In this document: positions 508-40,152 of the stretch, one piece after another | Numbering within the stretch: position 1 is the first letter of the stretch | How the letters are laid out: every line of letters begins with the position of its first letter | NCBI GenBank assembly: GCA_000092065.1 | Contig: CP000593.1 | Reading direction: 5' to 3' (one strand) | DNA length: 64,000 nucleotides | From: Ostreococcus lucimarinus | Lineage: Eukaryota | The notes under the pieces: model-generated | What the model saw: only the letters and a program-made list of their open reading frames with translations | What the model was told of the DNA's origin: nothing | Database searches by the model: none | Position numbers and translations under genes: made by a program

Positions 508-733
508 CGAATGCGTTTTGAAGACCACGTCGTCGTCGTGCCGGCGGGCGAGCGACGCGGTCGAGTTTAGGACTTTTTATTACCACCTTTCTCATTAGTA
601 CTCATCATTCTTCGCACGATTCGAGCGGTGCGAGGAGCCAACGAGAGCTCGCCGACTTCGCAGCCGCTCTTCTGCTCGCCCGACGAGTGACCGCAGACCG
701 CGCTTCGCACGCGCGTCTCGGTGCGTCGCTACC

Positions 734-2215
734 ATGCGACGCTCGGCGTGTTCGCGCCAACACCGCGAGCTCTGTGAGAATTTGTTCTCGTTCGCGCACA
801 GAGCGCGCGCACGAGCCCGCACATCGACCGCATTCGCGACGGTGGACGAAGCGTTGCGGGACTTCGTCAATCACGAAAAGAGCGGCGTCCCGCGAAACGC
901 TGGGACGGATACGACGGACGGATTCGATCTCGGACGCATGCATAGATTGTTGCGAGACTTTGACGATCCACACAGGGCGTATAACACGATACACGTGTCG
1001 GGAACGAAGGGGAAAGGAACGACGGTTTCCGTGCTCGCGAGCGTCCTGCGCGCCGCTGGATTACGAATCGGCACGTATAAGAGCCCTCACGTGTATACCG
1101 TGGCGGAAAGGATTCGGAGTAGCGAAAGTGATGCGTCTGCACAAGTTCTCGACGTACTGCGCGATTTAGAGCGAGAGATAAAGTCTGCACAACAGCGTGA
1201 GGGCGGTCAGTTGTCGTACTTTGAAGTCCTCACGGCGCTCGCCTTTGCATACTTTAAAAAGGCAAACGTCGATTTAGCGCTCGTGGAAGTCGGTCTCGGG
1301 GGAAGTCGAGACGCCACAAACGTACTCGCGGCAGAAAATCTAGAAGCAGCGGTGATCACACACATAGGTGAGGAACACCTCGAAGCGCTCGGCGGTTCGA
1401 TTGAGACAATCGTAGACGCAAAAGCTGGCATCGCGCATAAAGGTCGTCCGGTGTTTTGTGCCCCAAACGTGGACGAACGAATAACAACAATGTTGAAAAC
1501 TGCGCTCCGCGCGCGTGGGGCGAACGTTATCGATAACGTATGCGTAGACACGCGTCTCGTGCGGTATCACGTGGAAGACTCGATCGCTTCGCAGGACGTC
1601 GACATCGACATCAAAGTGGATGGTAAAATAGCGTCCACCCTTTCGAACGTTCGAATTCCTCTCGCTGGGCCGCACCAGCGCGAGAACATAAGTCTTGCGC
1701 TTCGTGTTCTGTGGTGGCTTCGCGCTCAAAACAAAATCGACGCATCTCTGGAAGATATTCGAAGAGGCTTGGAAACGACGCGCAGTCCGGGGAACTTTGA
1801 AGTATTTGAGACGAGTGGAGGGCCCACGATGATTGCTGATGGCGCGCACACCAAAGGTTCCGCTCGAGTTCTCGTGAACACGATTCGTGAGGTTTATCCC
1901 GACCGAAAACTTTTGTTCGTCGTAGCGATGGCGGACGACAAGGATCACGGAGGATTTATTGAAGAGCTGTACAGGGCGGATCCCGTCGGTGTGGTGTGCA
2001 CTCAAATGCAAGTCGCCGGCGCATCGTCTCGAACGACGCCCGCGAAGACGCTCGCGAAGGCTTATATCGGCCCAGCGCATGGTCCGACTCCCACCTCAGA
2101 AGATGATTTCGAGAAGGCCTTGAAAGGAGCGCTCTCGCGCGGCGACGACGAGATTGTCGTGGTCGTGACGGGATCACTTTACACGTTCAAAGCGCTTAGC
2201 AAGGCGTTACTGTAG
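734..2215 (+). CDS. FPGS: Folylpolyglutamate synthase / dihydrofolate synthase (Mur-ligase fold, FolC family)
   Basis: 493-aa ORF starting at ATG 734. Mur-ligase P-loop IHVSGTKGKGTT. FolC-type N-terminus (RDFDDPHRAYNTIHV) and C-terminal domain (VVTGSLY). Single exon. Confidence 0.88.
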   Translation: MRRSACSRQHRELCENLFSFAHRARARARTSTAFATVDEALRDFVNHEKSGVPRNAGTDTTDGFDLGRMHRLLRDFDDPHRAYNTIHVSGTKGKGTTVSVLASVLRAAGLRIGTYKSPHVYTVAERIRSSESDASAQVLDVLRDLEREIKSAQQREGGQLSYFEVLTALAFAYFKKANVDLALVEVGLGGSRDATNVLAAENLEAAVITHIGEEHLEALGGSIETIVDAKAGIAHKGRPVFCAPNVDERITTMLKTALRARGANVIDNVCVDTRLVRYHVEDSIASQDVDIDIKVDGKIASTLSNVRIPLAGPHQRENISLALRVLWWLRAQNKIDASLEDIRRGLETTRSPGNFEVFETSGGPTMIADGAHTKGSARVLVNTIREVYPDRKLLFVVAMADDKDHGGFIEELYRADPVGVVCTQMQVAGASSRTTPAKTLAKAYIGPAHGPTPTSEDDFEKALKGALSRGDDEIVVVVTGSLYTFKALSKALL

Positions 2216-2278
2216 AGACACCGTAGACGTAGACTAGCGTAGATTAAGTAGTTTAGTTACAGCCGCGTTAGACTAAAT

Positions 2279-4156
2279 CTAGAACTCAGCGCTACCCGGG
2301 TAACGGGGGAAAGGAATGGCGTCACGAATGTTCTCCACACCTGTGACGTACTGAACGAGGCGTTCAAAACCGAGGCCGAAACCGGCGTGCGGCTGCGAAC
2401 CGTATCGTCTCAAATCTAAGTACCACCAGTACGACTCCTTTTCCAAACCAACCTCTTCGATTCGGCGCTCCAAGACATCAAGGCGTTCTTCTCTTTGGCT
2501 ACCACCCATCAACTCACCAACGCGGGGCACCAAGACGTCCATTGCGGCGACGGTTTTGTTGTCGTCGTTGAGACGCATGTAGAACGCCTTGATATCTTTC
2601 GGATAATCGCGCACGATCACGGGGCGATCTTTGAAGACTTCTTCTGAGATGTACCGCTCGTGCTCGCTCTGAAGATCCGATCCCCATTCGATTGGGAACT
2701 CAAACTTCTTCTTCGCGTTCAACACGTGCTCGACGGCTTCGGTGTACGTGATGCGCGCAAACTCTTGCGACGCGACGTTTCGAAGTCGCTCTCTCAGGTT
2801 GTCTTTGGAGATGTTCTTCTCGAAGAATTCAAGATCTTCGTCGCAGTGCTCGAGGACGTGGTTCAGGCAATACTTCAAGTACGCTTCTGCGCAATCCATG
2901 TCGTCGTTCAAATCCGCGAACGCGAGTTCGGGCTCTACCATCCAAAACTCAGCCAGGTGGCGCGACGTGTTGCTATTCTCCGCGCGGAACGTCGGACCGA
3001 AGGTGTAGATGTCGTTGACCGCGCAAGCCATGATTTCACCGTTCAATTGCCCAGACACGGTCAAATAAGACGGTTTGCCGAAGAAGTCTTGAGAATAGTC
3101 GATGGAACCATCCTTATTCTTCGGCAAGTCGGACGACGGGCGATTGTTCTTCAGCGCCTCGACGCTCGCCTTGAGATCTAAAAGCTTCGCCACGGCCTCA
3201 TCAACTTGCTCTTTCGTCGCGTCTCCCGCTTTCTTCGCCTCCTTCAGGGCCTTCACCGCGTCACCCTGTGCCTTCACCATGGCTTCTTGCTCGTCCACGA
3301 CCGAGGCCGGCGTCGTCCACTCGCCGGCGCCGAAGCCGTTCAACAGCGTCGTCACTTGAAACTGTTCCCCAGCGCCTTCGCAATCCGACGCGGTGATGAT
3401 CGGCGTGTTGGCGTATAAAAACCCATGCTCTTGAAAGAACGTGTGCGTCGCGTACGCCAACTGATTGCGCACGCGAGCCACGGCGCCGATGGTGTTTGTG
3501 CGAGGTCGCAAGTGCGCGATGCTTCGAAGATATTCCAGCGTGTGTCGCTTCTTTTGCAGCGGATACGTCTCCGGATCCGCCGTTCCGATGACATCAATCT
3601 CCTCCACCGCCAATTCCGCCGCTTGCTTCCCTCCCGGACTCGCCACGAGTTTCCCCTTCACCCTGAGCGCCGCCCCCGTGGAGACGCCGCCCGCGTCGAG
3701 CGCGTCCCACGCCGCGCTTCCCTCGTTCACCACCGCTTGCATCCCCGAGATCGCGCTCCCATCGTTCAGGTCGATGAACGCCATTCCCTTCTGCGTCCGC
3801 ACCGATCGCGCCCACCCTCGCAGTTCCAACGCCTCGCCCACGCGCGACGCCCCCCCGTCGTTTCCCTTCACGCGCGCGATGCGCTCGGGTCGTCCGTACG
3901 TCGCCCGCGTCGCCACCGCGCGCGCGCTCCGCGCGTGTTTGATCGCTCCCGGCGTCGCTCTCGCCCGCATCGCGAGCGCACCGAGTCGCGCGCCGAGTCG
4001 CGCGCCGCGCACCGCGTCCACGGACGCGCGCGACATCATCGCGCCGTCGCCCGCGGGGACGTCCAGTGACGTCGCGCGCCCGTAATTCGTCGTCGGCAAA
4101 GGCGCGGTCGGTCGCCGAGACCATAAAATCGCGTTCGACGGCCACTTGCGAACCAT
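2279..4156 (-). CDS. Asparaginyl-tRNA synthetase, bacterial/organellar type, with an R/A-rich presequence and an inserted WHEP-like helix-turn-helix
   Basis: Class IIb motifs FRAENSNTSRHLAEFWMVEPE and GGSQREER. Anticodon-binding OB fold. The region ASDCEGAGEQF ... DFFGKPSYLTVSGQLNGE parallels E. coli AsnRS. ATG at 4156; alternative start MMSRAS at about 4039. Confidence 0.9.
   Translation of the reverse strand: MVRKWPSNAILWSRRPTAPLPTTNYGRATSLDVPAGDGAMMSRASVDAVRGARLGARLGALAMRARATPGAIKHARSARAVATRATYGRPERIARVKGNDGGASRVGEALELRGWARSVRTQKGMAFIDLNDGSAISGMQAVVNEGSAAWDALDAGGVSTGAALRVKGKLVASPGGKQAAELAVEEIDVIGTADPETYPLQKKRHTLEYLRSIAHLRPRTNTIGAVARVRNQLAYATHTFFQEHGFLYANTPIITASDCEGAGEQFQVTTLLNGFGAGEWTTPASVVDEQEAMVKAQGDAVKALKEAKKAGDATKEQVDEAVAKLLDLKASVEALKNNRPSSDLPKNKDGSIDYSQDFFGKPSYLTVSGQLNGEIMACAVNDIYTFGPTFRAENSNTSRHLAEFWMVEPELAFADLNDDMDCAEAYLKYCLNHVLEHCDEDLEFFEKNISKDNLRERLRNVASQEFARITYTEAVEHVLNAKKKFEFPIEWGSDLQSEHERYISEEVFKDRPVIVRDYPKDIKAFYMRLNDDNKTVAAMDVLVPRVGELMGGSQREERLDVLERRIEEVGLEKESYWWYLDLRRYGSQPHAGFGLGFERLVQYVTGVENIRDAIPFPRYPGSAEF
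3143..3295 (-). other. WHEP-TRS-like insertion inside the AsnRS catalytic domain
   Basis: EAMVKAQGDAVKALKEAKKAGDATKEQVDEAVAKLLDLKASVEAL matches the WHEP consensus (V.AQGD.VR.LKA.KA.K..VD.AV..LL.LKA). Confidence 0.6.
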
Positions 4157-4273
4157 TGAGTTGATCGTTTTTTTCTCGTGTGGACGACTTTTTCGCTCGA
4201 CGCGCGTCGTCCGTCGGGCGTCGCGGTCGACGCGCGCGACGGGACGGGAGACGGCGTCGGGGGCGTGACGCGC

Positions 4274-5398
4274 ATGCGGGACGAGATCGCGCTCGTCGAG
4301 CGCGCGCGCGTGGTCGTGGCGGACGACGGCGCGCGCGCGCGGCGAGACGCGGTCGCGCGGGCGACGACGCGACGGTTGATTTTGACGTTCGAGACGACGG
4401 CGACGGCGGCGGCGGCGGGGAGCGCGGCCGAGGGTGGGACGGTGATCGAGTACGACGACGTGGCGGCGTGCGAACGAGCGCAGGAGTCGCGGTCGACGCT
4501 GGGTGGGTTGTTCAGGAGGCGCGAGCGCGGGGTGGCGCTGGTTTTGACGAGCGGGAGACGGGTGACGATCGGCGCGCGAGGGGCGAGCGCGGAGGAGGTG
4601 TGCGGGAAAATCGAGAACGCGATCGTAAAGTATAAGAGACAGAAAGCGACGGCGGCGGTGGAGACGACGCGGGAGGATGCGAGGCGGCGGGCGAGCGGCG
4701 CGTCGGCGGCGACGGCGGGCGTCGGCGGCGCGGTGAATCGACAGCTCGAACGCGCGGAGGCGACGAATAAGACGATGGACGAGGCGTTTACCGATCTCAG
4801 AGCGCTCATGGCGAAGGCTGGAGAGATGGTGACGCTCGCCGAGCGGCTCGCGGAGTCGATGGACGGGAAAGGGGAAAGTTCAGAGCTTCAGCGTCTCGTG
4901 CTCAGTCTCGGGATTACGAGTCCGGTGACGCGCGCGAACGCGGGGGCAGAGTTTCATCGAGAATTAGGTAAACAATTAGCGGATTGGATAACGCCCGTGG
5001 TGCAAAAATCGAACGGCATCATTACCGTCACCGATGCGTTCTGTTTGTTCAATCGCGCGCGAGGCACGGAGTTAGTTTCCCCGCAAGACATGCTTCGCGC
5101 GAGCGAATCGTGGGAGTCGCTCGGGGTCGATTTGCACTTGCGTAAATTTGAAAGCGGAGTGATGGTGATTCATACCGTAGAACGCACAGACGAGGAAGCG
5201 TGCGCGCGATTGCTCGCGCGATTGCCGTCTTACGAGCATTCAATCGATTCGTACGAGGCGGCGCAAATATTAGCGACGACGCCCGAAATAGCGCTCGAGT
5301 ACCTCTACATGGCAGAAAGCCGAGGCGTTTTGTGTCGAGACGACGGACCTGCGCAGATGAGATTTTATGCAAACATGTTCGAGGCTAGATTGACGTAG
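4274..5398 (+). CDS. VPS36: ESCRT-II subunit Vps36/EAP45 (GLUE-like N-terminus plus tandem winged-helix C-terminus)
   Basis: The C-terminus (NRARGTELVSPQDMLRASESWESLGVDLHLRKFESGVMVIH ... CRDDGPAQMRFYANMFE) closely parallels the human EAP45 C-terminus (CLVNRARGMELLSPEDL...CRDDSVEGLRFYPNLF). The ORF-track start 4178 is GTG; the first ATG is 4274. Confidence 0.75.
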   Translation: MRDEIALVERARVVVADDGARARRDAVARATTRRLILTFETTATAAAAGSAAEGGTVIEYDDVAACERAQESRSTLGGLFRRRERGVALVLTSGRRVTIGARGASAEEVCGKIENAIVKYKRQKATAAVETTREDARRRASGASAATAGVGGAVNRQLERAEATNKTMDEAFTDLRALMAKAGEMVTLAERLAESMDGKGESSELQRLVLSLGITSPVTRANAGAEFHRELGKQLADWITPVVQKSNGIITVTDAFCLFNRARGTELVSPQDMLRASESWESLGVDLHLRKFESGVMVIHTVERTDEEACARLLARLPSYEHSIDSYEAAQILATTPEIALEYLYMAESRGVLCRDDGPAQMRFYANMFEARLT

Positions 5399-5469
5399 AT
5401 TTTTATTGAACAACTCACAAATTAGCCACGGGTGATTGATGATGCTACACAATTTTCAAGCGCGCGCGC

Positions 5470-5898
5470 TTAAATGTCATTAATGTCGTCGAAATCGAAG
5501 AAGTCATCGTTCTCGTCGCGCTCTTCTTCGAACGTATCCGTATCGTTCACGCGGAAAGTGTCCGGGAGTTCCCCGTACGCCTTCAACGAGCGCGCCTCGT
5601 CGGCCAAGTACTTCAAGATGACGTCCGCCTTTTCGTCTTGAAAGTCCCGCAAGCCCAACAGGATGATGTCCCCGGTGTTCACCCAAACCTTTTTCCGCAT
5701 TTTACCGCGAATGTGACACAAACGCTTCACCCCATCGATGCACTGCGCCTCTAAGCGCCCGTTCCCGAGCATGCGCAACACTTGCGCGTACTCTTGACCG
5801 TCCTCTTTGAAGATGAGTTCGCGCTTCTCGTCTTCGCCGCCCCCTTTCCCGCGACGACGGTTCTTCCCTCCCTTTCCCTTGGAGTTACTCTTCGGCAT
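5470..5898 (-). CDS. EIF1A: Translation initiation factor eIF1A
   Basis: 142 aa. Basic N-terminal tail ([14 protein letters not shown]), S1/OB core ([56 protein letters not shown]) and acidic tail ([11 protein letters not shown]). ATG verified. Confidence 0.95.
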
Positions 5899-6337
5899 CG
5901 TGCGTTTACGACGCTCGCGTGTCTAAAACTTTACGCAGTCCCTCGATCGAGGACGAGTCGCGGATGAATGCGATTTCGGCGTCGTTCAAACTGAAGACCC
6001 TAGAACTTTCTTCGCGCGTCCGTCGCGCGCGTCCGTGCGCGCGAGGCGTGCGGTGAATCGATCGAACGCGCGTGCGTGACGTTTACGTGCGTGGAGCGCG
6101 CGCAAAGATCGGCCGAGTCCGGGTCGTCGACGGCGGGGCGTCGAAAAGAGACGGATGGGCGCGGGCCGAGCTCGACGTCGTTCGAGCGAACGCGCGGCGA
6201 AATCGAACCCGACCCCGTGGGCCAGGGTTGATGCGAGCGTTCGTGACTCAAGGAGTGGGGACTCGATCGGCGCGCGCGCGCGCGTCGAGAGGAAGTCGGT
6301 CGCTCGGGCGCTCTACAATCGGCGACGACGCTATGAA

Positions 6338-9300
6338 CTATAAATACTTCAGCCCGACGATCTTCGCTCGACGCTGGAGGGTGTGCTGGGTGACGACGGC
6401 GATGAGACTGGTGAAGGCGAGCGCGCGCACGGAGGGAATTTTTGAAAGAAACGGCGCCACGACGGCGAGCGGGGCGGTCAAGATGAGCGTCATCCCGTCC
6501 GTGCGAACGCTCGTGGCGAGGTAGTGCACCAAATTGATGCTATTCACCGAAGCGAGGAGCAGACTCAACGCGTTGAGCGTCATCCACGGCAACTTGGAGG
6601 CGGTCGCGGCGAGAACGTGAACTCGGTTCGGGCCGGCGAGGATGGCGGCGACGGCGTCCCAGCACATCTTACCCACGATCATCGCGAGCGGTGGAGCGTA
6701 TCGTTGGCTGTCTTCCAGTATAGGAAATATCACCGAGTCTTGGTGAAGAAGAAGCAGAATGGGCGCGAGGACGAAGACCGAAAACGCGGAGCCATCGGCC
6801 AACTCATCGCTCAGCACCACGCACGCGAGAAAGGACGTGAGCGTGGCGATGTTCCCGATGATTGGCATCCAAGCGATCGCCTTTGCCTTGAGTTCTCTGT
6901 GCTCGTTTCTGCTCGCGACACCGCGGAAATATTCCGGACGACTGCGACCAGTGGCGGGAAGGAACGGTGAAGTACCGCCTTGACGTCGTCGATGTTGCAC
7001 GCTCTCCAGGCTCGTTTTGATTCTCAACTTCAGAGCAAACGCGATTTGCAGCGAAGTCCCGGCGAAAACGCCGACGACACCGAATTTTCCTTCCATTCTC
7101 GCCTGATGGTCGTCCACAGTCTCGTCTGAGCCACCCATTTGTGTGACGTACGCCAAGCCGAGAACGGAGACGAACGATAAATACACGTAAGGCAACCAGC
7201 GCGAAGACTTCGGCGAAGGGCTGTACGTGAAAGACAAGAACACTCCCACCAGCGCACACGCGACAAATAGTAGTGCCGTCAGCGCCACTTGCTGGACGAA
7301 GAATTCCAGCGCCATATATAAACCAACGCTCCCACCGCACACGGCGCTTAAGGCGATTCGAATCGTTGACGTTGATTTTGTCTGTTGTCGTGGAGACGAG
7401 ACGGCGAATATCGCGGTGAGCGCGGCTAACATCAGCAACCAGCTCGGCCATCCATGATGCGCGTTCTCGCGCACGCCGTACATTCTCGCTTCGTCTTCTT
7501 CAGAGTCGGGAACGTGTTCGGCGTCATACCACATGCCCACCTCGCCCTTCCAAGGCATCGGCGGTCGGAAGGTGATGAGAAAGACGCCACAGAAACTCAA
7601 GAGCATCATCAATCGTTTGCTAAACATGTCATCACCGTAACTTTGTCGCGTTACCACGGACGCCAAGCTCGCCCCCGTGATCAGGAGGAGTCCACCGAAG
7701 AGCGTCGCGTCCGTCGGTCGGTGACCCGAGAGTTCAAATATAACGTCAAACATCGCAAACCGAGCGAATACCAAAGAGAACACCAAAGCGACGCAATAAC
7801 CAACGCTCGCGCCCGGAGATAATTGAGTCATTCGCCGTGACATCGCGTGCGGAGCGGTGATGGCGAGCACGACCACCAAGACGCTGAACATTTCCTTCAA
7901 ACCGCGAACAAAGAGCATGGAGAGCTTTGCGCCGCACACGCTCTGCATCACCCAGCCAAATTCGCGACTGATTCTCCCGCTGATGACGAGGCCTCGACTC
8001 GCCAAGAAGCCGCTGATGGAAGTGACGATGACCAAATATGGTGGATAAATCAAAGAATCGTCGTCATGCGTCGCTTGACTCAGGATTTGTTCAATCGTTG
8101 CGAGCGCCGAGACGTAACAGACGACGAGGACGCCAACCGTCGGCGCGCGCGCGCTTTTCGTATTCAACACCGCTGGCAAAGCCAAAGCCGCCACGGCGAG
8201 GAGTAATATGGCGACACACAATTGTTTGACGTCGAAAGCTCCCACGCGCACATCGAGTGACCAGAAATTCTTCGAAAGAAACCACGAAAAGCATCCGACG
8301 CAACTCGCGGCAAACACGCCGTAATCCTTCGGCTCTCGGTCCTCGTAATAATATTTGACGAATGACGATGATCCGGCGATGGGGATCGGAATCATCCACA
8401 GAGGTGCACCCAAAGCACAAATTGCGGTCGACGTAGACAGAGCCAACGTCGCCTTCACCGCACCCGTCGGGACGCCGTCGCCGACGGCGTTTGCGTAGCA
8501 CGCGGCGAAAACTGCCAGCGCGCTGTGGACGGAAACCGTCACCATGATGTAATTCAAAGGAGCCATGATTTCGATGTACTCGGCAAATTCACTAAATATT
8601 ATTCCACCTTCAACGCTCACCGCAAATCCAGTGAGTGCGAAGAGGAGCACGGCGGTTTCCATCCTTTTCGACGCCACGTCGACGCCGCGCGCGCGCCACC
8701 ACAACGACTTCTCCGTGCCGGCGGCTATTAAATACAACACCGGGACCGTCACCAACGCCCCACACGCGAAGACGTGATCGAGGGACTTGAACAGTGTGTC
8801 GAGGTTCGTCCATAAATACAACGCGACGGGTAAGCCGAGCGTGGCCACGGTGGCGTACTCGGCGTCGCTCTCGGTCAACGCCGAGCGCTTGTCCGACGGA
8901 GGCCCGTTCGTCTTCGTCACCGCCGCGCACGCGCTCGCGCACGGAAACAAAAACATCCGATGCGTGATCAACGACACGACCGAGCCGTAAAACGCCGCTC
9001 TCTCAGCTCCCGCGCTCGCGCTCGCGAACGCCCACGTCAGAATCGTCGTCGTCGTCGGCGGACACAGCGCGAAAATCAAACGCTCGCACGTCGCCGCCGC
9101 GCCCGCGTGCGACTCGTGTATCCACCGAAATTGCAGCGTGCACCACGAGCAAAATAAAAACAAATTCACCCCATTCACCGCGAGCAGCGCGCACGACGTC
9201 CCGACCGTCGCGCTCGTCCGCCAGCTCCCTCTCGTCAGCAGCGTCCCGAGCGCCGCCGTCGCCGTCGTCCAAATCGCGCCCAGCGCCCCCTCTCCGTTCC

Positions 9301-9766
9301 CCATCGCGTCCATCCCGCGCGCCGCGCTCGCCCCGATCGCGACCACGGTCACCATCGTCTCCCCCCCGCTGCCGAGCGTGACGCACAGCGCCGGCGCGAG
9401 CGCCGTCAGCGCGCGCGTCGAGTGTCCCCAACGACATCCCGCGCGTCGTCGCGTCGCCTCCTCGCGCGCCCCCGTCGCGCGCTCGCGCCCGCGTCCGCGC
9501 GCGCGCATCCCGGACGCGCGCGCGCGTCGTTTCCTCGCCCGATTCGCGCGCGTCGTCACCGCATCGCCGCCGCGCGTCGCTCGATGGCGTCGTTCGTCGT
9601 CCGTCCGACCGCCCGCGCGCCCGCGCCGCCCGCGCTCGCGCCTTCCGTTCGACGAGACCGTCCGATTGAGACCGTCCTCGCGCGCGCGCCCTCGCGCGCG
9701 CGCCCTCCGCGCGCGCGCCGCGCCGCGCGGACCCCGAACGCGCGCGGACGCGACGCGTCGCGACAC
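6338..9766 (-). CDS. Very large multi-pass membrane protein (more than 20 predicted TM helices), family unassigned
   Basis: Continuous 1142-aa ORF. The first ~130 aa are Arg-rich, so the true start is probably downstream, near ...GSGGETMVTVVAIGA. Body composition is coding-like and hydrophobic segments recur throughout. No catalytic motif recognised. Confidence 0.6.
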   Translation of the reverse strand: MSRRVASARVRGPRGAARARRARARGRAREDGLNRTVSSNGRRERGRRGRAGGRTDDERRHRATRGGDAVTTRANRARKRRARASGMRARGRGRERATGAREEATRRRAGCRWGHSTRALTALAPALCVTLGSGGETMVTVVAIGASAARGMDAMGNGEGALGAIWTTATAALGTLLTRGSWRTSATVGTSCALLAVNGVNLFLFCSWCTLQFRWIHESHAGAAATCERLIFALCPPTTTTILTWAFASASAGAERAAFYGSVVSLITHRMFLFPCASACAAVTKTNGPPSDKRSALTESDAEYATVATLGLPVALYLWTNLDTLFKSLDHVFACGALVTVPVLYLIAAGTEKSLWWRARGVDVASKRMETAVLLFALTGFAVSVEGGIIFSEFAEYIEIMAPLNYIMVTVSVHSALAVFAACYANAVGDGVPTGAVKATLALSTSTAICALGAPLWMIPIPIAGSSSFVKYYYEDREPKDYGVFAASCVGCFSWFLSKNFWSLDVRVGAFDVKQLCVAILLLAVAALALPAVLNTKSARAPTVGVLVVCYVSALATIEQILSQATHDDDSLIYPPYLVIVTSISGFLASRGLVISGRISREFGWVMQSVCGAKLSMLFVRGLKEMFSVLVVVLAITAPHAMSRRMTQLSPGASVGYCVALVFSLVFARFAMFDVIFELSGHRPTDATLFGGLLLITGASLASVVTRQSYGDDMFSKRLMMLLSFCGVFLITFRPPMPWKGEVGMWYDAEHVPDSEEDEARMYGVRENAHHGWPSWLLMLAALTAIFAVSSPRQQTKSTSTIRIALSAVCGGSVGLYMALEFFVQQVALTALLFVACALVGVFLSFTYSPSPKSSRWLPYVYLSFVSVLGLAYVTQMGGSDETVDDHQARMEGKFGVVGVFAGTSLQIAFALKLRIKTSLESVQHRRRQGGTSPFLPATGRSRPEYFRGVASRNEHRELKAKAIAWMPIIGNIATLTSFLACVVLSDELADGSAFSVFVLAPILLLLHQDSVIFPILEDSQRYAPPLAMIVGKMCWDAVAAILAGPNRVHVLAATASKLPWMTLNALSLLLASVNSINLVHYLATSVRTDGMTLILTAPLAVVAPFLSKIPSVRALAFTSLIAVVTQHTLQRRAKIVGLKYL

Positions 9767-9792
9767 AACGCGACGACGCGAAGCACGACGCG

Positions 9793-10221
9793 ATGGCGAC
9801 GCCGCGCGCGATGACGATGACGCGCTCGCGCGCGCTCGTCGCGACGCGCGTGACGACGCGAAGAGGGACGGCGACGACGCGACGCGCGCGCGCGACGCGC
9901 CCGAAGATCGAAAGCCTCGGTGGGTTCGGGCCGAACATCGACGCGAAGGAGATTCAACGACGCATGGCGGAGAAGCAGCGAAAGATCGACGAGAACAAGC
10001 GCAAGGCGCGGGGCGCGAAGGAGGCGTCGACCGCGTTCGGGGCGCGAAGGGAGTTTCAGAGGACGATCTCGAGCGCGAGACCGTCGCGCGCGGGACGGAC
10101 GATGCCGGGGGGCGGCGTCGCCGCGGGGACGACGTCGAGCAAGACGAAGACGACGAGCGGGAAGGGCGGGAAGGGCGGGAAGGAGGAGGCGCCGAAGAAG
10201 AAACTGTTCGGATTGTTTTGA
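9793..10221 (+). CDS. Candidate small basic protein with a T/R-rich presequence (hypothetical)
   Basis: ATG at 9793. The mature part (KIESLGGFGPNIDAKEIQRRMAEKQRKIDENKRKARGAKEAS...KKKLFGLF) is not low-complexity GC junk. Lies upstream of and divergent from the big membrane gene. Confidence 0.3.
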   Translation: MATPRAMTMTRSRALVATRVTTRRGTATTRRARATRPKIESLGGFGPNIDAKEIQRRMAEKQRKIDENKRKARGAKEASTAFGARREFQRTISSARPSRAGRTMPGGGVAAGTTSSKTKTTSGKGGKGGKEEAPKKKLFGLF

Positions 10222-10495
10222 GCGACGACGACGGGCGCGAGTTTGTAACGAACGAGTCATTCTAATCGCTCGCGAGTCGACGCGACGACGCGAATGCGCG
10301 CGCGCGTCGACGCCACAATTCGACGACGTCTCGACGCGACGTCTCGACGCGATCGCGCGATCGCGATCGGTCGACGGCGAGAACGCGACGACGGCGCGAT
10401 CGCCGACGCGCGATCGGGCGTGAGTCGTCGCGACGGGCGCGCGGGGCGACGACGACCGACAACACGTGGCGCGATCGACGGTCGACGACGACGCG

Positions 10496-11378
10496 ATGAG
10501 CGCGCAGGCGACGCGAGATCAGCTGCGGACGGCGTTCGCGGAGTTAGAGTGCGTCGCGCGATGCGATGGGATGGGATTCGAGCGACGCGAGCGACGCGAC
10601 GAGACGGAATACGCGCGAGGGACGGGACTGACGGAGCGAGCTCGCGACGCGTCGGCGCAGGGACGGATTCAAGCGTAAGGACGTTCTCGAGAGCCGCGAG
10701 ACGTCGGTGTCGAGCGGACACTTGAAAAAGTTGACCAATAAAATGGCGGAGAGTAAAAAGCTGATCAAGGAGTTTGAGAGACGGGCGCTGAGCGAAGGGG
10801 CCATGGACGCGAACGCGTTGGCGGCGGCGAAGAAGGAATACGTGTCGAGGTTGAACAAGTTTGTGCAGATGAAGAAGGAGGCGCAGATTGCGATCGCGGA
10901 GAAACAAGAAGAGAGGAAGAGCGAGGTTGGTAGTCAGGGCGGGGAAGCGAGCACGTCGGGAGGGGTGACGACGTCGACGACGGCTACGTCGACGGCGTTT
11001 ACGTTGCCGGCGTTCCGGCCAAAGCCAAAGGGGGAGATTGTAGAGGATGAGCAGTTGCAACTCATGGAGGCTGGGGATTTGATTGATCACGGTAGGAACG
11101 TCATGGACCAAACGGATAAGAGCATCATGCGAAGCGAAGCGGTGGTTGAGGAGACGATTCAAATAGGGACGCAAACCGCCGAGGCGTTGCGCGGGCAGAC
11201 AAAACAACTGGAGAAAATCGTAGATGATCTCGATGAAATCCACTTTTCGTTGAAAAAGTCGTTTGGCGTGCTGAAGGACATCACCCGTGGGTTAGCGACG
11301 GATAAGTGCATCATGCTCTTGCTCTTTTTGGTCGTCGTCGGCGTAGTTGTGGTCATCATTACGAGGTTCGTGAAGTAG
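10496..11378 (+). CDS. NPSN-type Qb-SNARE (novel plant SNARE family), two exons: join(10496..10548,10661..11378)
   Basis: Exon 2 gives the SNARE motif and tail anchor (DLDEIHFSLKKSFGVLKDITRGLATDKCIMLLLFLVVVG), near-identical in pattern to plant NPSN11 (ELDSIHFSLKKASKLVKEIGRQVATDKCIMAFLFLIVIG). The ORF-track start 10707 lacks the N-terminal helix. Exon 1 (MSAQATRDQLRTAFAEL-E) joins in frame (phase 2) across a 112-nt GTGCGT...GCGCAG intron. Confidence 0.8.
10549..10660 (+). mobile_element. Introner-like element forming the SNARE intron (112 nt)
   Basis: GTGCGTCGCGCGATG...GACGCGAGCGACGCGACGAGACGG...GGGACTGACGGAGCGAGC...GTCGGCGCAG. Shares the donor, the CGACG repeats, the GGGACTGACGG box and the terminus with the other four introns. 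Confidence 0.75.
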
Positions 11379-11608
11379 CGCGTATCTAAATAAAAGAAGT
11401 TTCGCATCTTAAACATCGCGCGTCTACTTCATCGTCATCAGTTTAATTGCTGAAATTAAAAATTGGATATTCTTTCGCTCGGTAGCGTCGTCGTCGTCGT
11501 CGTCGTCATCTCGCAATCATCCCAGACCGCGGTTGTCATCCTTCGTCGTCGCCAGCGTCGTTTTTCCGAGCTCCATCGTTGTACAGTACAGTATGCTAGA
11601 ACATTCGT

Positions 11609-13486
11609 TTAGTTTTCGCGCATCGAATCAGGTTCAAAGTCGGCATCATCGTCGTCATCCTCTTCTGGCGCATCCGCAGCATCGACGAGCGCTCGAGACC
11701 ATCTCGCGAGATTTTCGCCGCGGTGGTCGTCGTCGCTATCGGTGCTCGCTTCGTCTTCATCGTCTTCATCCGTATCTTCTTCTTCCTCGTCATCTTCTTC
11801 GTCAAATCCCCAAGCGTCGTGTTCATCGCGCATGGGAGGGGTGCCGAGATGCACTCCACCATCACCAGCTTCGAAGACGCGCACGTGATTGTCTATACCG
11901 CAGCACACGATGGTCGGCAAGTGCGGGTGCGGCAAAACGGTGTTCACCACCTGACTGTCTGCTTGCATTTTGCACACGAGCTCGCACGTATCTTTGTGCC
12001 AGACGTATACGTTGCCATCGTCACCACCCGTCGTGACGTACTCATCGTCGCACATAAAAGCGACACCCTTTAAGAAGGTTTTCACATTTCTGCGTCCGAC
12101 GTACCTCTTCGCCGCCTGATGCGTGATCGGCATTTCCCACGGCACGGAGAACGACTTAAAAATACGTTCCTCAGAATTGATATTCGCCGCCGCTCGGCGA
12201 GTGTCCAACAGGTACACGTCGTCGCCTTTGCAGTTAATCGCGAGTTCGCCCTTGGACGAGTAAGCCAGGCCAGATATACCCTCAAAGCCCGGGCTTCGCA
12301 CGCCTCGACCGAGCTCGAGCGGACTGAGCATCATGACGCACGGAATGTCGTGATTCATCGAAGGCCGAGGCGATCTCAGAAACATCGGTTGACCCGTGGG
12401 CGACGTGCTCGGACTCGGTGCCGCTGGACATTCGCGCGCCGCTTCTCGCCGGTTACTCTTGACGTGTCTGAGATCAAACACGCGCACGTGAGGATCGTCC
12501 GAGCACGCGGCGAACGTCGTAGGCGCCGTCGGGTCGAACACGATTTCCGACGTCGGCCCGCACGCGCTCAAATCGACGACGATTTCGTGTGAGTTTCCTT
12601 CGAAACCACCGTGACTTTGCCTCAAGTCGAACAAACGAACGCGACCGTCTTGATGGCACGACAAAAACGTATTCGGTTCGTTCGGCACGAACGTCATGCC
12701 GAACCCCATCCCCGCGCCTCGACCGTGCCAGAGCGAGCGACTGCACTCGGAATTCGGTTGATTCGCCCCGCGCAGGCGATAACCGTAATGCGCGGGCGCG
12801 GGCCCTCGAAACCCACGCTCTAAATCCACCAACCGCACGTCTCCATCCGCGGACGTCGTGACGCAGTACGCGCTGTTCGATTGCGGCACGAATTCGCTCG
12901 CGAAGACGTTGTGCGTGTGCCCCGTGAACGCCGACCCCTTCAGCGGCATCTTCGCCCCGCACCCCCACACGCACACCGTCATATCATCGCTCCCAGAGAT
13001 CAACAGCGACGCATCGTCGTTCCAACTCACGCAATTCACGCACCCACCGTGCTTCTCCAGCGTCTCCCTCAGCCTCAATTCCTCCACGAAGCGCTTATTC
13101 GAGCACCGCAGCGCCGTCGCCCCCGTCTTCGCGCTCGCCGCGCCTCCCCGTCGCTCCCCGATCTGCCGCTCTCTGCACCACTGCCGTCGCTGCGCGTCGG
13201 CGAATATATTTCGACTCCGTCGCGCGAATCCTCCCGCGCCGTCCTCGTCCATCCGCGTCGTTCGCGTCGTCGTCGCCGCCCCGTCGTCGCGCGCCGCCTC
13301 CGCGCCTCGTCCCGCGCCGTCTTCGTCCTCGTCCCGCGCCGTCTTCGTCCGCGCTCTGGCGCGCGCGCTTCTCGCGCCGTCGTCCATCGACGTTCGCCTC
13401 GTCGCCTCGTCCCGTCGTCCCGTCGTCCCGTCGTCGCGCGTCGTCGCGCGTCCGTCCGTCCGTCCGTCCGTCCGTCCGTCAACCAC
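11609..13486 (-). CDS. WD40-repeat DDB1-CUL4 associated factor (DCAF8/WDTC1-like) with an acidic C-terminal tail
   Basis: ETLEKHGGCVNCVSWNDDASLLISGSDDMTVCVWG...FTGHTHNVFASEFVPQSNSAYCVTTSADGDVRLVDL parallels DCAF8 ([31 protein letters not shown]). Multiple WD repeats. The start is uncertain: the N-terminal ~80 aa are Arg/Asp-rich and include the translated (GTCC)n. Confidence 0.8.
   Translation of the reverse strand: MVDGRTDGRTDGRATTRDDGTTGRRDEATRRTSMDDGARSARARARTKTARDEDEDGAGRGAEAARDDGAATTTRTTRMDEDGAGGFARRSRNIFADAQRRQWCRERQIGERRGGAASAKTGATALRCSNKRFVEELRLRETLEKHGGCVNCVSWNDDASLLISGSDDMTVCVWGCGAKMPLKGSAFTGHTHNVFASEFVPQSNSAYCVTTSADGDVRLVDLERGFRGPAPAHYGYRLRGANQPNSECSRSLWHGRGAGMGFGMTFVPNEPNTFLSCHQDGRVRLFDLRQSHGGFEGNSHEIVVDLSACGPTSEIVFDPTAPTTFAACSDDPHVRVFDLRHVKSNRREAARECPAAPSPSTSPTGQPMFLRSPRPSMNHDIPCVMMLSPLELGRGVRSPGFEGISGLAYSSKGELAINCKGDDVYLLDTRRAAANINSEERIFKSFSVPWEMPITHQAAKRYVGRRNVKTFLKGVAFMCDDEYVTTGGDDGNVYVWHKDTCELVCKMQADSQVVNTVLPHPHLPTIVCCGIDNHVRVFEAGDGGVHLGTPPMRDEHDAWGFDEEDDEEEEDTDEDDEDEASTDSDDDHRGENLARWSRALVDAADAPEEDDDDDADFEPDSMREN
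13446..13474. repeat. (GTCC)n microsatellite
   Basis: gtccgtccgtccgtccgtccgtccgtc. Confidence 0.9.
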
Positions 13487-13678
13487 CGCGTCCGTCGCCC
13501 CGTCGGTCCTTCGTCGGTCGCCTCGCGTCGCGCCTCGCGTCGCGGCCGACGGTCCGCGTCAGCGCGCGCGTCGCGATCGCCCGGCCGACGCGCGCCGCCG
13601 ACTGCCGCGCGTCGCGCGCGTCCGCGTCCGCGTCGCGCGCGCTGACGCGGCCCGTCGGCCGGCGACCGCGCTGGACGT

Positions 13679-13800
13679 CGCCACACGAGGGTGTTTTTCG
13701 TCCGGGATCGCCATACGAGGGTATTTTTCGTCCGGGATCGCCACACGAGGGTGTTTTTCGTCCGTCCGGGATCGCCATACGAGGGTTGTTTTTCGTCGAG
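13679..13800. repeat. Tandem ~30-bp minisatellite (about 4 copies of CGCCAYACGAGGGTRTTTTTCGTCCGGGAT) in a bidirectional promoter
   Basis: Direct repeats are visible in the sequence. They sit between the divergent DCAF-like gene (minus strand) and Brf1 (plus strand, ATG 13923). The region is relatively T-rich in a GC-rich context. Confidence 0.85.
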
Positions 13801-13922
13801 TCGGCGCGGGACGATTGGGCGACGAGGATTGGGCTCGCGACGCGCGACGACGGGAGAGGACGGCGCGGTGCGCGCGGGACGCGAGGTGCGCGAGGTGCGC
13901 GAGGTGCGCGGTGCGGCGCGCG

Positions 13923-16199
13923 ATGGTGCACCGGTGGTGCGAGACGTGCGGGAAACGGGTCGCGGCGGAGACGAACGAGGCGAACGGGTTCACGTGCTGC
14001 ACGACGTGCGGGAAGATTTTAGACGAGCGCGCGGCGTTCAGCGCGGACGCGACGTTCGTGAAGAACGCGCAGGGAGCGTCCGTGCCGGATGGACACTACG
14101 TGCCGGAGAGCGGGGTGGCGCACGGGGTGATACGGGCGACGCGAGGCGGAAGACTGTACGGCGTGCAGTTGGACTCGCACGAGCGCACGCTGTATCGAGG
14201 GAAGCTGGAGATTAAACAGTTGGCGGATCGGTTGGGGATACGACCGAGGGAGGACGTCGTGGACGCGGCGCATCGGCTGTATAAGCTCGCGGTGCAGAGA
14301 AATTTTACGCGAGGGCGAAGGATTTCGCAAGTGGCGGGGGCGTGCATGTACATCATCTGTCGACAGGAATCGAGACCGTACATGTTGATTGATTTCGCGG
14401 ATATTTTACAGACGAACGTGTACGTTTTGGGGGGCGTGTTCTTACAGTTGTGTCGGTTGTTGCGACTGGAGCAGCATCCGCTCATGCAAAAGCCGATCGA
14501 TCCGAGTCTGTTCATTCATCGATTCGCGGACAAGTTGAACTTGGGACGACGGATGCACACCGTGGCGAACACGGCGCTGCGGCTCGTGGCGTCCATGAAG
14601 CGGGATTGGATGCAGACTGGTCGTCGTCCGAATGGAATTTGTGGTGCCGCGTTGTGGGTCGCCGCTCAAATTCATGGATTCAGTCCGAGCAAGCGCGATG
14701 TCGTGGCTGTGGTGCACGTCGGCGAATCGACGCTGAAGAAGCGTCTGAGCGAATTCGAAAACACGCCGAGCGCGGCGCTGTCGATCGAGGAGTTTGACAC
14801 GCAAGCTCGCACGTTTGAGGCTGAAGAAGAAGCGAATAAAAACACAAAATCGCTAGCGTCGAGCCCAATGTCGGTGCTGAGCTGTGTGCACAAAGACAAC
14901 GAAAACATTCCGCACTTTGCGCACGGAATGTGTCGCGCGTGTTACGTGGATTACGTTAGAATTTCGGGGGGTTCGGTGGGAGGCGCCGATCCGCCCGCGT
15001 TCATGCGCGCAGAAGCGAAGCGGAAAATCGATGCAAAACAAAAGCTTTTGTTGCCCGCGCTGTCGTCGGGCGAATTGGGAGACGAAGACGCGTTGACGCA
15101 AGAATTTAACTCGGCGCTCGAGCAAGACTTGAGCGCGCTGCTCGCGTCGCCTACGCCGTTGAATTCAGTTCAGCCCTTGGCCTTACCTTGCTCGTCGAAA
15201 CGCGCGACTTCGGCGAGGAATATGACGAAAAAGGGGCAAAAGCAGCAACAGCAACATCACGTTCAAACTAGTCGCCGCGAGCCGGTCGACGCTGATTTCT
15301 TGAGACGCGCCGAGGACGCCCTGCGCCTGCTCGTCGGATCTCGATGGGCCGAACTCGTTTGCTTACCGTTTACAAGCGATCTCTCCAAGGCGCGACTGTC
15401 GAAGATGCATATGTGTGAGCTCCATCCAAACTACGAAACCTTTGTGAACAACGAAGGTGAACGCATCGCGCAAGTGGACGCGCTGGTCTTACACTTTTTA
15501 ATAGCCGCGAAGTGTTTCGACGATTCAGCTCTGGCGCAGTTGGCAAAGCATTCGCCGCACGACGTCGAGGCTTTCCAAACGACGCCGTTCGATCCATCGC
15601 AAACGTCATCGAAGGCCGCGCTTGCGGTCGTTGAAAGCGACGGTCTCGTCGCCAAGGAGGATAACGAAGTCATCGATACGCTCTCGGACGTTGACGACGA
15701 TGAAATCGATTCGTACATTCACAACGAAAACGAAGTCAACCTTCGTCGTTTGGTTTGGTCTGAGATGAACAAGGAGTACTTGGAATTCCAAGCCTTGAAA
15801 GAGCAAGCCGCCAGCCGCACGAGCGCGCCGACGAAAAAGAAGCATAGAAAAGCCCCCGACACGCTGCCCGCGGAGACTCCCGCGGAAGCTGCGCGTCAAG
15901 TCTTAGCTAAAAAGAAGGGCAGCTCGAAAATCAACTACGAAGCGTTGGAAAATCTCTTCAAAGTTTCTGATGGTTCGCAGCCGCCTCCGAACTCAAAAGC
16001 GACGTCTGACGTCGAAAATGACGCTTCTCCGACAAAGTCTCCTCGCACGAGACGCGCGCGTCCCGCAGGCTTACCCTCGAGCGCTCCGATGTCGACGAAA
16101 TCAACCGCCAAGCGTCGCGGCTCGAGCGTCTCGACGCACGCGCCGTCGTCCGCGCGTCCGAGCGGTCTCGCGAAGAAGCCATCGGCGAAGAAAAAGTGA
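13923..16199 (+). CDS. BRF1: TFIIIB subunit Brf1 (TFIIB-related factor): Zn-ribbon, two cyclin folds, Brf1 homology region
   Basis: MVHRWCETCGK...FTCCTTCGKIL Zn ribbon. TFIIB cyclin repeats (RGRRISQVAGACMYIICRQESRPYMLIDFADIL). Long acidic/KR C-terminal extension. The first 355 codons of ORF 12858 are antisense shadow of the WD40 gene; the true ATG is at 13923. Confidence 0.85.
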   Translation: MVHRWCETCGKRVAAETNEANGFTCCTTCGKILDERAAFSADATFVKNAQGASVPDGHYVPESGVAHGVIRATRGGRLYGVQLDSHERTLYRGKLEIKQLADRLGIRPREDVVDAAHRLYKLAVQRNFTRGRRISQVAGACMYIICRQESRPYMLIDFADILQTNVYVLGGVFLQLCRLLRLEQHPLMQKPIDPSLFIHRFADKLNLGRRMHTVANTALRLVASMKRDWMQTGRRPNGICGAALWVAAQIHGFSPSKRDVVAVVHVGESTLKKRLSEFENTPSAALSIEEFDTQARTFEAEEEANKNTKSLASSPMSVLSCVHKDNENIPHFAHGMCRACYVDYVRISGGSVGGADPPAFMRAEAKRKIDAKQKLLLPALSSGELGDEDALTQEFNSALEQDLSALLASPTPLNSVQPLALPCSSKRATSARNMTKKGQKQQQQHHVQTSRREPVDADFLRRAEDALRLLVGSRWAELVCLPFTSDLSKARLSKMHMCELHPNYETFVNNEGERIAQVDALVLHFLIAAKCFDDSALAQLAKHSPHDVEAFQTTPFDPSQTSSKAALAVVESDGLVAKEDNEVIDTLSDVDDDEIDSYIHNENEVNLRRLVWSEMNKEYLEFQALKEQAASRTSAPTKKKHRKAPDTLPAETPAEAARQVLAKKKGSSKINYEALENLFKVSDGSQPPPNSKATSDVENDASPTKSPRTRRARPAGLPSSAPMSTKSTAKRRGSSVSTHAPSSARPSGLAKKPSAKKK

Positions 16200-39959: not shown

Positions 39960-40152
39960 GTGCGTGCGATGCGACGCGACGCGACGCGATCGGGCGCGCG
40001 GACGACGCGGACGCGCGCGACGAGACTGCCGCGAATCGATGGAATTCCGAGGACGGTTACTAACCCGACGGAACGAATGAATCGACGCGACGCGACGCGC
40101 GGACGACGCGACGCGGAGGACTGACGACGGTACGAATCGATGGTCATCACAG
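39960..40152 (+). mobile_element. Introner-like element in the 5' region of the acyl-CoA dehydrogenase gene (193 nt)
   Basis: GTGCGTGCGATGCGACGCGACGCGACGCGATCGG...TTACTAAC...GACGCGACGCGACGCGCGGACGACGCGACGCGGAGGACTGACGACGGTACGAATCGATGGTCATCACAG. A possible exon 1 (39915..39959, MTTREPFGEGVPFGD) joins in phase 0 to 40153, 13 codons upstream of ATG 40192. Confidence 0.65.

What the first reader, a model, noticed from the sequence alone, without database searches (positions are those of the whole stretch)
10496..10660. NPSN SNARE regains its N-terminal helix via an upstream micro-exon and a 112-nt introner
ORF 10707..11378 starts mid-protein relative to plant NPSN11. An upstream ATG at 10496 encodes MSAQATRDQLRTAFAEL-E. 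A GTGCGT donor at 10549 and a GCGCAG acceptor at 10658-10660 join it in phase 2 to 10661 (DGFKRKDVLESRE...). The joined sequence aligns with the NPSN11 N-terminal region (..FRALSNGFQKLEKIKD..). The intron carries the family GGGACTGACGG box.
Basis: partly seen in the sequence, partly recalled or inferred. Interest (0 to 1): 0.7.

Follow-up and report, generated by a model that had tools for sequence, protein, structure and literature searches.

The report
Ordinary first intron of Ostreococcus NPSN SNARE
The short upstream exon and the 112-base intron are real and are spliced as proposed, giving a full-length 256-residue plant-type (NPSN) membrane-fusion protein, but the intron is an ordinary, ancient one that grasses share, not a mobile "introner", and the gene model is already in public data.

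Summary
The ATG is at 10496, exon 1 is 10496-10548, the GTGCGT donor is at 10549, the acceptor CAG ends at 10660 (112 nt, phase 2), and exon 2 runs from 10661 in frame with ORF 10707-11378. Seven assembled transcript contigs lack exactly these 112 nt. One comes from an O. lucimarinus CCE9901 RNA-seq run and carries a poly(A) tail. The exact 256-aa product is already in the public protein collection, a near-identical MMETSP transcript is in UniRef, and the O. tauri orthologue is annotated with the same start. The protein is an NPSN-type Qb-SNARE: it matches Pfam V-SNARE_C and Sec20, and it is 33% identical to Brachypodium "novel plant SNARE 13" over residues 9-245. The "introner" reading fails. 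The same phase-2 intron sits at the same codon in four related prasinophyte lineages, in a more distant relative (probably Micromonas) and in two grasses. The intron has no other copy in the window, and none was found in metagenomes. The "GGGACTGACGG box" is the published extended branch-point consensus (GACTGACG) of canonical Ostreococcus introns. Nothing was "regained"; a plain ORF scan simply misses exon 1. This is ordinary and already known.

The parts
10246..10495 (+). 5' UTR. This is the minimum extent: the longest single-gene transcript contig, L009, begins at 10246, and five other contigs begin at 10312-10368.
   Evidence: blastn of L009-L015 against the window; sequence
10496..10548 (+). 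Coding part of exon 1: ATG plus MSAQATRDQLRTAFAEL plus the first two bases (GA) of codon 18. It encodes most of N-terminal helix a.
   Evidence: conserved peptide R-D-x-L-R-T-A-F-A-E-L in orthologues; predicted helix 3-20 with pLDDT about 80
10549..10660 (+). Canonical spliceosomal intron, 112 nt, phase 2, GC 71%
   Evidence: Precisely absent from 7 transcript contigs; present in 6 genomic metagenome contigs
10549..10554 (+). 5' splice site GTGCGT, the Mamiellophyceae consensus donor
   Evidence: consensus AG|GTGCGT in PMC3879977
10624..10634 (+). Branch-point box GGGACTGACGG. It contains the extended Ostreococcus branch consensus GACTGACG. The branch A is at 10631, 29 nt before the 3' splice site.
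   Evidence: PMC3879977 citing Irimia and Roy 2008
10658..10660 (+). 3' splice site CAG
10661..11378 (+). Coding part of exon 2: the third base of codon 18, then DGFKRKDVL... to stop TAG at 11376-11378
11106..11288 (+). Qb-type SNARE motif (residues 167-227)
   Evidence: Pfam V-SNARE_C 1.1e-09 and Sec20 9.2e-09; matches Vti1-like 1 (1gl2_C) and the N-terminal SNARE motif of SNAP-25
11304..11372 (+). C-terminal transmembrane anchor (residues 233-255), after the invariant TDKCI motif
   Evidence: alignment invariants; predicted helix 233-255
11379..11415 (+). 3' UTR with AATAAA at 11389-11394. Poly(A) is added after about 11415.
   Evidence: L009 and L014 end in A-runs after window 11415 and 11413

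Best explanation
This is the single-intron gene for the NPSN-type Qb-SNARE of Ostreococcus lucimarinus (CCE9901 or a near-identical strain). The pre-mRNA starts at or upstream of about 10312-10368. A canonical 112-nt phase-2 intron (10549-10660) is removed using the standard Mamiellophyceae signals: GTGCGT donor, GACTGACG branch point 29 nt from the acceptor, and CAG acceptor. The mRNA is polyadenylated about 37 nt after the stop codon. The 256-aa product has a predicted N-terminal three-helix region (helices about 3-28, 32-63 and 68-109; exon 1 encodes the first 17 residues). A disordered linker follows, then a Qb SNARE helix and a C-terminal membrane anchor. By homology with Arabidopsis NPSN11, it is inferred to supply the Qb helix of a four-helix Qa/Qb/Qc/R complex that fuses secretory vesicles at or near the plasma membrane or division plane. 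The intron is ancestral: it has the same codon and phase in other Mamiellophyceae and in grass NPSN genes. Shown here: the gene model, splicing, polyadenylation, family assignment and intron conservation. Inferred: the cellular role and partner SNAREs.
For: Sequence and frame. Transcripts: seven contigs skip exactly 10549/50-10660/61, and two have poly(A) tails. L009 is from SRR847308, which is O. lucimarinus CCE9901 RNA-seq, and is 100% identical over exon 2. The exact 256-aa protein is in the collection (P0106). MMETSP transcript P0112 (UniRef A0A7R9XQ64, 'type:complete') differs by 2 residues. The O. tauri annotated orthologue CEG00121.1 begins MASARALSDRLRTAFAELEDGFKRRDVL. Family: Pfam V-SNARE_C and Sec20. 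BLASTP against Brachypodium 'novel plant SNARE 13' gives E = 4e-35 and 33% identity over residues 9-245, including the exon-1 residues. A source names the O. tauri cluster 'novel plant SNARE'. The nearest solved sequences are Qb helices. Structure: predicted helices 3-20, 23-28, 32-63, 68-109, 155-229 and 233-255. Intron conservation: syntenic loci L001, L005 and L006, the probable Micromonas locus L019, Zizania L016 and Brachypodium L018 all have a phase-2 intron in the codon after the conserved L and before x-G-F. Signals match the published canonical consensus. NPSN11 is a Qb-SNARE in the KNOLLE/NPSN11/SYP71/VAMP721,722 complex: PMC3655819.
Against: No functional data exist for the algal protein. 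The structure model has only moderate confidence (mean pLDDT 66, pTM 0.33). No phylogeny against the other Qb families (VTI1, GOS1, MEMB1, SEC20) was built. The exonic -2/-1 bases are GA, not the consensus AG. Ostreococcus has no phragmoplast or cell plate, so the plant cytokinesis role cannot be carried over literally. The Myrmecia bisecta (Trebouxiophyceae) homologue lacks this intron, so 'ancestral' requires loss in that lineage.
Confidence: 0.95

Rival explanations
1. The intron is an introner element: a recently inserted member of a mobile, repeated intron family marked by the GGGACTGACGG box.
For: Other putative introns in the window carry GTGCGT and a GACTGACG-like box at a similar distance from the CAG. 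They also share (GCGAC)n runs, which gives weak local similarity (z up to 4.1 against i24406). Introner elements do exist in the related genus Micromonas.
Against: The same phase-2 intron position occurs in four Ostreococcus/Bathycoccaceae-like lineages, in a probable Micromonas locus and in two grasses. It is therefore not a recent insertion. blastn of the intron against the 64-kb window finds only low-complexity GCGACG matches. The interiors of the putative introns are mostly no more alike than shuffles. A 20-mer from the intron interior hits 12 metagenome contigs: six are this same locus at over 99.7% identity, and six have unrelated flanks. The box is the published canonical branch-point consensus and occurs only twice in the window, at chance level. 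No terminal inverted repeats or target-site duplications stand out above the CG-rich background.
Confidence: 0.02
2. Exon 1 is not used for protein. The SNARE starts inside the long ORF, at ATG 10743 (M46; 211 aa) or GTG 10707 (223 aa), as prokaryote-style gene callers report.
For: Many database entries are 211 or 223 aa. Some transcripts that start upstream of 10294 carry an upstream ATG whose 90-codon uORF overlaps ATG 10496.
Against: Those shorter entries are ORF calls on unspliced genomic or metagenomic DNA. All seven transcript contigs contain ATG 10496 and the spliced junction. The exon-1 peptide is conserved across orthologues while the intron is not. It aligns with the plant NPSN N-terminus and is predicted to be helical. 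ATG 10496 is the first ATG in five of the seven contigs.
Confidence: 0.02
3. The protein is a Qb-SNARE of another family (VTI1-, SEC20- or GOS/MEMB-like) rather than NPSN.
For: The Pfam hits are to the generic V-SNARE_C and Sec20 models. The nearest solved sequence is Vti1-like 1. No tree was built.
Against: The full-length matches in land plants include a cluster that contains a protein named NPSN13. The juxtamembrane TDKCI motif is invariant from alga to grass. The first-intron position and phase are shared with grass NPSN genes. The Vti1 match is weak (E = 1e-3) and limited to the SNARE helix.
Confidence: 0.03

Closest known systems
Land-plant NPSN Qb-SNAREs (Arabidopsis NPSN11-13; Brachypodium 'novel plant SNARE 13', XP_003557845.1)
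   Same: Same domain order: N-terminal helical region, linker, Qb SNARE motif, TDKCI motif and C-terminal anchor. Identity is 33% over residues 9-245. The first intron has the same position and phase.
   Different: The algal protein has a longer, Ser/Thr-rich disordered linker (about residues 108-151). It lacks the short luminal tail (..NPHNKNI..PG..RRLL..) that follows the anchor in plants and in Myrmecia. The plant role in cell-plate fusion (PMC3655819) cannot be assumed for a 1-micrometre alga without a phragmoplast.
O. tauri orthologue CEG00121.1 / XP_022840212.1 ('Target SNARE coiled-coil domain', 261 aa) and MMETSP Ostreococcus transcript UniRef A0A7R9XQ64 (256 aa)
   Same: Same two-exon product. 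The O. tauri N-terminus is MASARALSDRLRTAFAELEDGFKRRDVL. The MMETSP protein differs from the window product at 2 residues.
   Different: Only strain- or species-level substitutions. The O. tauri cluster is about 66% identical (P0015).
Canonical Mamiellophyceae spliceosomal introns (Verhelst et al. 2013, PMC3879977; Irimia and Roy 2008 as cited there)
   Same: GTGCGT donor, GACTGACG extended branch point, CAG acceptor, high GC and excision confirmed by transcripts.
   Different: The exonic bases before the donor are GA rather than AG. The branch A is 29 nt from the acceptor, whereas 43-52 nt is reported for Micromonas canonical introns. The other putative introns in this window lie at 22-35 nt.
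Micromonas introner elements (IE-A to IE-D)
   Same: Both are functional spliceosomal introns in a Mamiellophyceae genome. IE-C of RCC299 carries the same GACTGACG branch motif.
   Different: Introners are repeated hundreds to thousands of times with sequence similarity along their length, and they are lineage-specific. This intron is single-copy and positionally ancient.

Membership tests
NPSN (novel plant SNARE) Qb-SNARE family | Qb-type SNARE coiled-coil motif | tested here: met
   Pfam V-SNARE_C (38.8 bits, cutoff 27.1) and Sec20 (35.6 bits, cutoff 27) on residues 167-253. The nearest PDB sequences are Vti1-like 1 and the N-terminal (Qb) motif of SNAP-25.
NPSN (novel plant SNARE) Qb-SNARE family | Full-length similarity to named land-plant NPSN proteins, N-terminal region included | tested here: met
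   BLASTP against Brachypodium NPSN13 (P0130): E = 4e-35, residues 9-245 aligned. Plant hits cover 93-96% of the query. A source names the O. tauri cluster 'novel plant SNARE'.
NPSN (novel plant SNARE) Qb-SNARE family | C-terminal transmembrane anchor after the SNARE motif (tail-anchored) | tested here: met
   A hydrophobic stretch after the invariant TDKCI motif; predicted helix 233-255
NPSN (novel plant SNARE) Qb-SNARE family | N-terminal helical (Habc-like) regulatory region | tested here: inconclusive
   AlphaFold2 predicts helices 3-20, 23-28, 32-63 and 68-109 with block pLDDT of 59-84, but pTM is 0.33. Packing into a three-helix bundle was not verified.
NPSN (novel plant SNARE) Qb-SNARE family | Glutamine at the zero ionic layer | tested here: inconclusive
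   Q197 and Q200 are invariant in the 21-sequence alignment. The heptad register was not assigned, so the layer-0 residue was not formally identified.
NPSN (novel plant SNARE) Qb-SNARE family | Groups with NPSN, and not with VTI1, GOS1, MEMB1 or SEC20, in a Qb-SNARE phylogeny | not tested
   No tree was built. Support is indirect only: the named hit and the shared intron position.
NPSN (novel plant SNARE) Qb-SNARE family | Forms a Qa/Qb/Qc/R complex with syntaxin, SYP7-type and VAMP7-type partners | not testable with these tools
   Known for Arabidopsis NPSN11 (PMC3655819); needs biochemistry in the alga.
Introner elements | Many copies with sequence similarity along their length in unrelated genes of the same genome | tested here: not met
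   No second copy in 64 kb. Interiors of the putative introns are mostly no more alike than shuffles, apart from (GCGAC)n runs. Metagenome hits to an interior 20-mer are either this same locus or unrelated. A whole-genome test was not possible.
Introner elements | Recent, lineage-specific insertion that is absent from orthologues | tested here: not met
   The same position and phase occur in L001, L005, L006, L019, Zizania L016 and Brachypodium L018.
Introner elements | Transposon hallmarks (terminal inverted repeats, target-site duplication) in the DNA-transposon type | tested here: not met
   Only short CG-rich matches of the kind expected in this low-complexity sequence. No terminal pair frames the intron.
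Canonical Mamiellophyceae spliceosomal intron | GTGCGT donor, NCTGAC (extended GACTGACG) branch point and YAG acceptor | tested here: met
   GTGCGT 10549-10554, GACTGACG 10626-10633 and CAG 10658-10660; published consensus.
Canonical Mamiellophyceae spliceosomal intron | Excised from mature mRNA | tested here: met
   Seven transcript contigs lack it, two of them with poly(A) tails.

The most novel reading that the evidence does not exclude
This phase-2 first intron has stayed at the same codon since the common ancestor of prasinophytes and land plants, in genomes that have lost most of their introns. That could mean it is kept for a function. Examples would be splicing-dependent expression, or control by intron retention: the unspliced message stops at TAA 10676-10678 after 60 codons. 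It could act together with the upstream ATG at 10294. A more modest novel reading is that the O. lucimarinus reference annotation may lack exon 1, which would make this a gene-model correction.
Probability: 0.12. Interest if true: 0.3.

Novelty: already known. Interest (0 to 1): 0.1.

Why it matters
It matters little beyond correct annotation. The finding shows that ORF-only reading of Ostreococcus DNA removes the N-terminal 33-45 residues of this SNARE. It also shows that shared GTGCGT and GACTGACG motifs in this genome are splicing signals, so other 'introner' calls in this window that rest on the same box deserve the same scepticism. The one mildly interesting by-product is a clear case of an intron position and phase conserved between Mamiellophyceae and grasses in a plant-lineage SNARE. 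This is consistent with NPSN and its first intron predating the split between chlorophytes and streptophytes.

Tried and rejected
An exact look-up of the 223-aa ORF product (GTG 10707) found nothing on record. A literature search for NPSN + Ostreococcus + SNARE returned no paper, and one search failed on syntax. Global alignment of the orthologous introns gave 'identities' of 75-87 columns for every pair regardless of relatedness. With CG-rich low-complexity sequence and cheap gaps this is uninformative, so I did not use it as evidence of intron orthology; position and phase carry that argument. I considered the alternative donor GTGAGT at 10420. It lies in the 5' UTR and no transcript contig uses it. 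The structure prediction gave only moderate confidence, so I did not run a fold search on it. I could not find out whether the official O. lucimarinus CCE9901 annotation already holds the 256-aa model. No NCBI-named O. lucimarinus entry appeared among the 40 of 60 cluster members that were read.

Full report
**1. The observation**

The sequence is as described.
- ATG 10496 is the first ATG after an in-frame stop.
- Seventeen codons (MSAQATRDQLRTAFAEL) plus 'GA' end at 10548.
- GTGCGT starts at 10549 and GGGACTGACGG lies at 10624-10634.
- ..GCGCAG ends at 10660. The interval is 112 nt and phase 2.
- Joining gives GA+G = Glu, then DGFKRKDVLESRETSVSSGHLKK..., in frame with ORF 10707-11378. The product is 256 aa.
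- Without splicing, the frame from 10496 stops at TAA 10676-10678.

**2. Transcript evidence**

- The exact 256-aa sequence is already in the public protein collection as P0106.
- Its source contig L009 (1,079 nt) comes from run SRR847308. A preprint identifies that run as RNA-seq of O. lucimarinus CCE9901 (bioRxiv 10.1101/2025.04.21.649811).
- L009 aligns to window 10246-10549 with one mismatch, and then to 10661-11415 at 100% identity.
- Six further contigs from other runs (L010-L015, which encode P0114) show the same jump.
- All seven read ...GCGGAGTTAGAG^GACGGATTCAAG... at the junction.
- L009 and L014 end in poly(A) after about 11415, 20-25 nt downstream of an AATAAA at 11389-11394. They are therefore mature mRNAs.
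- By contrast, six metagenomic DNA contigs of the same locus, over 99.7% identical, retain the intron.
- The window is thus O. lucimarinus CCE9901 or a near-identical strain, and the intron is excised exactly as proposed.

**3. What the protein is**

- Pfam gives V-SNARE_C (E = 1.1e-09) and Sec20 (E = 9.2e-09) on residues 167-253.
- The nearest solved sequences are Qb helices: Vti1-like 1 in 1GL2, and the N-terminal motif of SNAP-25.
- The homologue search returned 105 proteins. They include a cluster that a source names 'novel plant SNARE' and grass proteins that cover 93-96% of the query.
- One of those grass clusters contains Brachypodium 'novel plant SNARE 13', XP_003557845.1.
- Pairwise BLASTP against that protein gives E = 4e-35 and 33% identity over residues 9-245. 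QLRTAFAELEDGFKRKD aligns with EIQDIFRALQNGFQKMD.
- T231-D232-K233-C234-I235 before the membrane anchor are invariant from alga to grass.
- An AlphaFold2 model (mean pLDDT 66, moderate) predicts helices 3-20, 23-28, 32-63 and 68-109, a disordered linker at 108-151, a long SNARE helix at 155-229 and an anchor helix at 233-255. Exon 1 therefore encodes most of the first helix.
- In Arabidopsis, NPSN11 is the Qb-SNARE of the KNOLLE/NPSN11/SYP71/VAMP721,722 complex (PMC3655819). A Qb role in a four-helix fusion complex is inferred for the alga. Its cellular site is not known.

**4. The gene model is already known**

- The O. tauri orthologue is annotated as CEG00121.1 / XP_022840212.1 (261 aa). It begins MASARALSDRLRTAFAELEDGFKRRDVL.
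- An MMETSP Ostreococcus transcript (UniRef A0A7R9XQ64, 256 aa, 'type:complete') differs from the window product at two residues.
- The many 211- and 223-aa database entries are ORF calls on unspliced DNA.

**5. Is the intron an introner? No.**

(a) Position. A phase-2 intron sits in the codon after the conserved Leu and immediately before x-Gly-Phe in every locus below.

| Locus | Relation to the window gene | Sequence across the intron (^) | Donor | Intron length |
|---|---|---|---|---|
| L001 | syntenic, protein 75% identical | AFAEL^EDGFKRR | GTGCGT | 112 nt |
| L005 | syntenic | LFAEL^DDGFKRQ | GTACGT | 129 nt |
| L006 | syntenic | LFEEL^EAGFKKK | GTGCGT | 121 nt |
| L019 | more distant, probably Micromonas | IYAQL^EVGFKQT | GTGCGT | 175 nt |
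| L016 | Zizania (grass) | FRAL^QNGF | not tabulated | 171 nt |
| L018 | Brachypodium NPSN13 (grass) | FRAL^QNGF | not tabulated | 1,165 nt |

- The trebouxiophyte Myrmecia bisecta lacks this intron.
- The simplest reading is an ancestral Viridiplantae intron that Myrmecia lost, not a recent insertion.
- Mis-annotated grass entries (P0097, P0098, P0102) also break exactly before NGF or skip that exon. This is consistent with the same boundary.

(b) Copy number.
- blastn of the intron against the window finds nothing beyond GCGACG low-complexity matches.
- A scan for the canonical signals finds five or six putative introns in the window: 10549 (+), 24406 (-), 30866 (-), 39960 (+), about 56795 (+) and 1185 (-).
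- Their interiors are mostly no more alike than shuffles. The exceptions trace to (GCGAC)n runs, which also fill the intergenic DNA.
- An interior 20-mer hits 12 metagenome contigs. Six are this locus and six have unrelated flanks.

(c) The 'family box'.
- GGGACTGACGG occurs twice in the window, at chance level.
- Verhelst et al. 2013 (PMC3879977) state that canonical Mamiellophyceae introns favour AG|GTGCGT and an NCTGAC branch point. They also state that GACTGACG is the extended branch-point sequence of canonical Ostreococcus introns, citing Irimia and Roy 2008.
- In this intron the branch A lies 29 nt from the acceptor. The other putative introns in the window lie at 22-35 nt.

(d) Transposon hallmarks. 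No terminal inverted repeats or target-site duplication stand out.

**6. Verdict**

It is wrong on 'introner' and 'regains'.
- This is an ordinary, already documented gene with a canonical and evolutionarily old first intron.
- Interest is low. The practical value is as a caution about ORF-only reading, and about treating Ostreococcus splice signals as a repeat family.

Noticed in passing
window 10280-10480, 24600-24660, 39965-39990, 56800-56850: Introns and intergenic spacers are filled with (GCGAC)n-type pentanucleotide runs. They are richer in GC (about 66-76%) than the window as a whole (60%). On the sense strand the putative introns are purine-rich, with almost no T and no polypyrimidine tract before the acceptor. 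This shared low complexity probably made the introns look like a 'family'.
   Followed up: partly
window 10294-10548 plus 10661-10678: An upstream ATG at 10294 opens a uORF of about 90 codons in the spliced mRNA. It overlaps the main start at 10496 and ends at TAA 10676-10678. Transcript contigs L009 (from 10246) and L010 (from 10073) contain it. The five contigs that start at 10312-10368 do not. This could be translational control linked to alternative start sites, or just read-through from the upstream gene.
   Followed up: no
window 11465 onward; L010, L012, L013: Three environmental transcript contigs are 99.75% identical to the window up to 11465. They then diverge completely, into sequence that encodes an OTU/ankyrin protein on the opposite strand instead of the WD40 gene. 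This is either a strain-level rearrangement just past the SNARE 3' end or a chimeric assembly. L011, in contrast, is colinear with the window through 13378, across the convergent WD40 gene.
   Followed up: partly
window 9793-10221 (+): The upstream 142-aa ORF ends in ...KKKLFGLF*. The same C-terminal KLFGLF-stop is conserved at the syntenic position in L001, L005 and L006. It is a small, basic, conserved protein that I did not identify.
   Followed up: no
window 6338-9766 (-), 11609-13486 (-), 12858-16199 (+): The gene order is a large multi-pass membrane protein, the small basic protein, the SNARE, a WD40 protein (convergent) and a BRF1/TFIIB-like protein. This order is conserved in the related loci L001 and L006.
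   Followed up: partly
window 10551-10558 and 10643-10650: A perfect 8-nt complement (GCGTCGCG / CGCGACGC) lies just inside the two ends of the intron. It could bring the splice sites together, but in this CG-rich sequence it is probably chance.
   Followed up: no
L001 2807-2918: The orthologous intron in a species whose protein is only about 75% identical is also exactly 112 nt long and has GGGACTGAC at nearly the same offset. This may be coincidence or mild length constraint.
   Followed up: no
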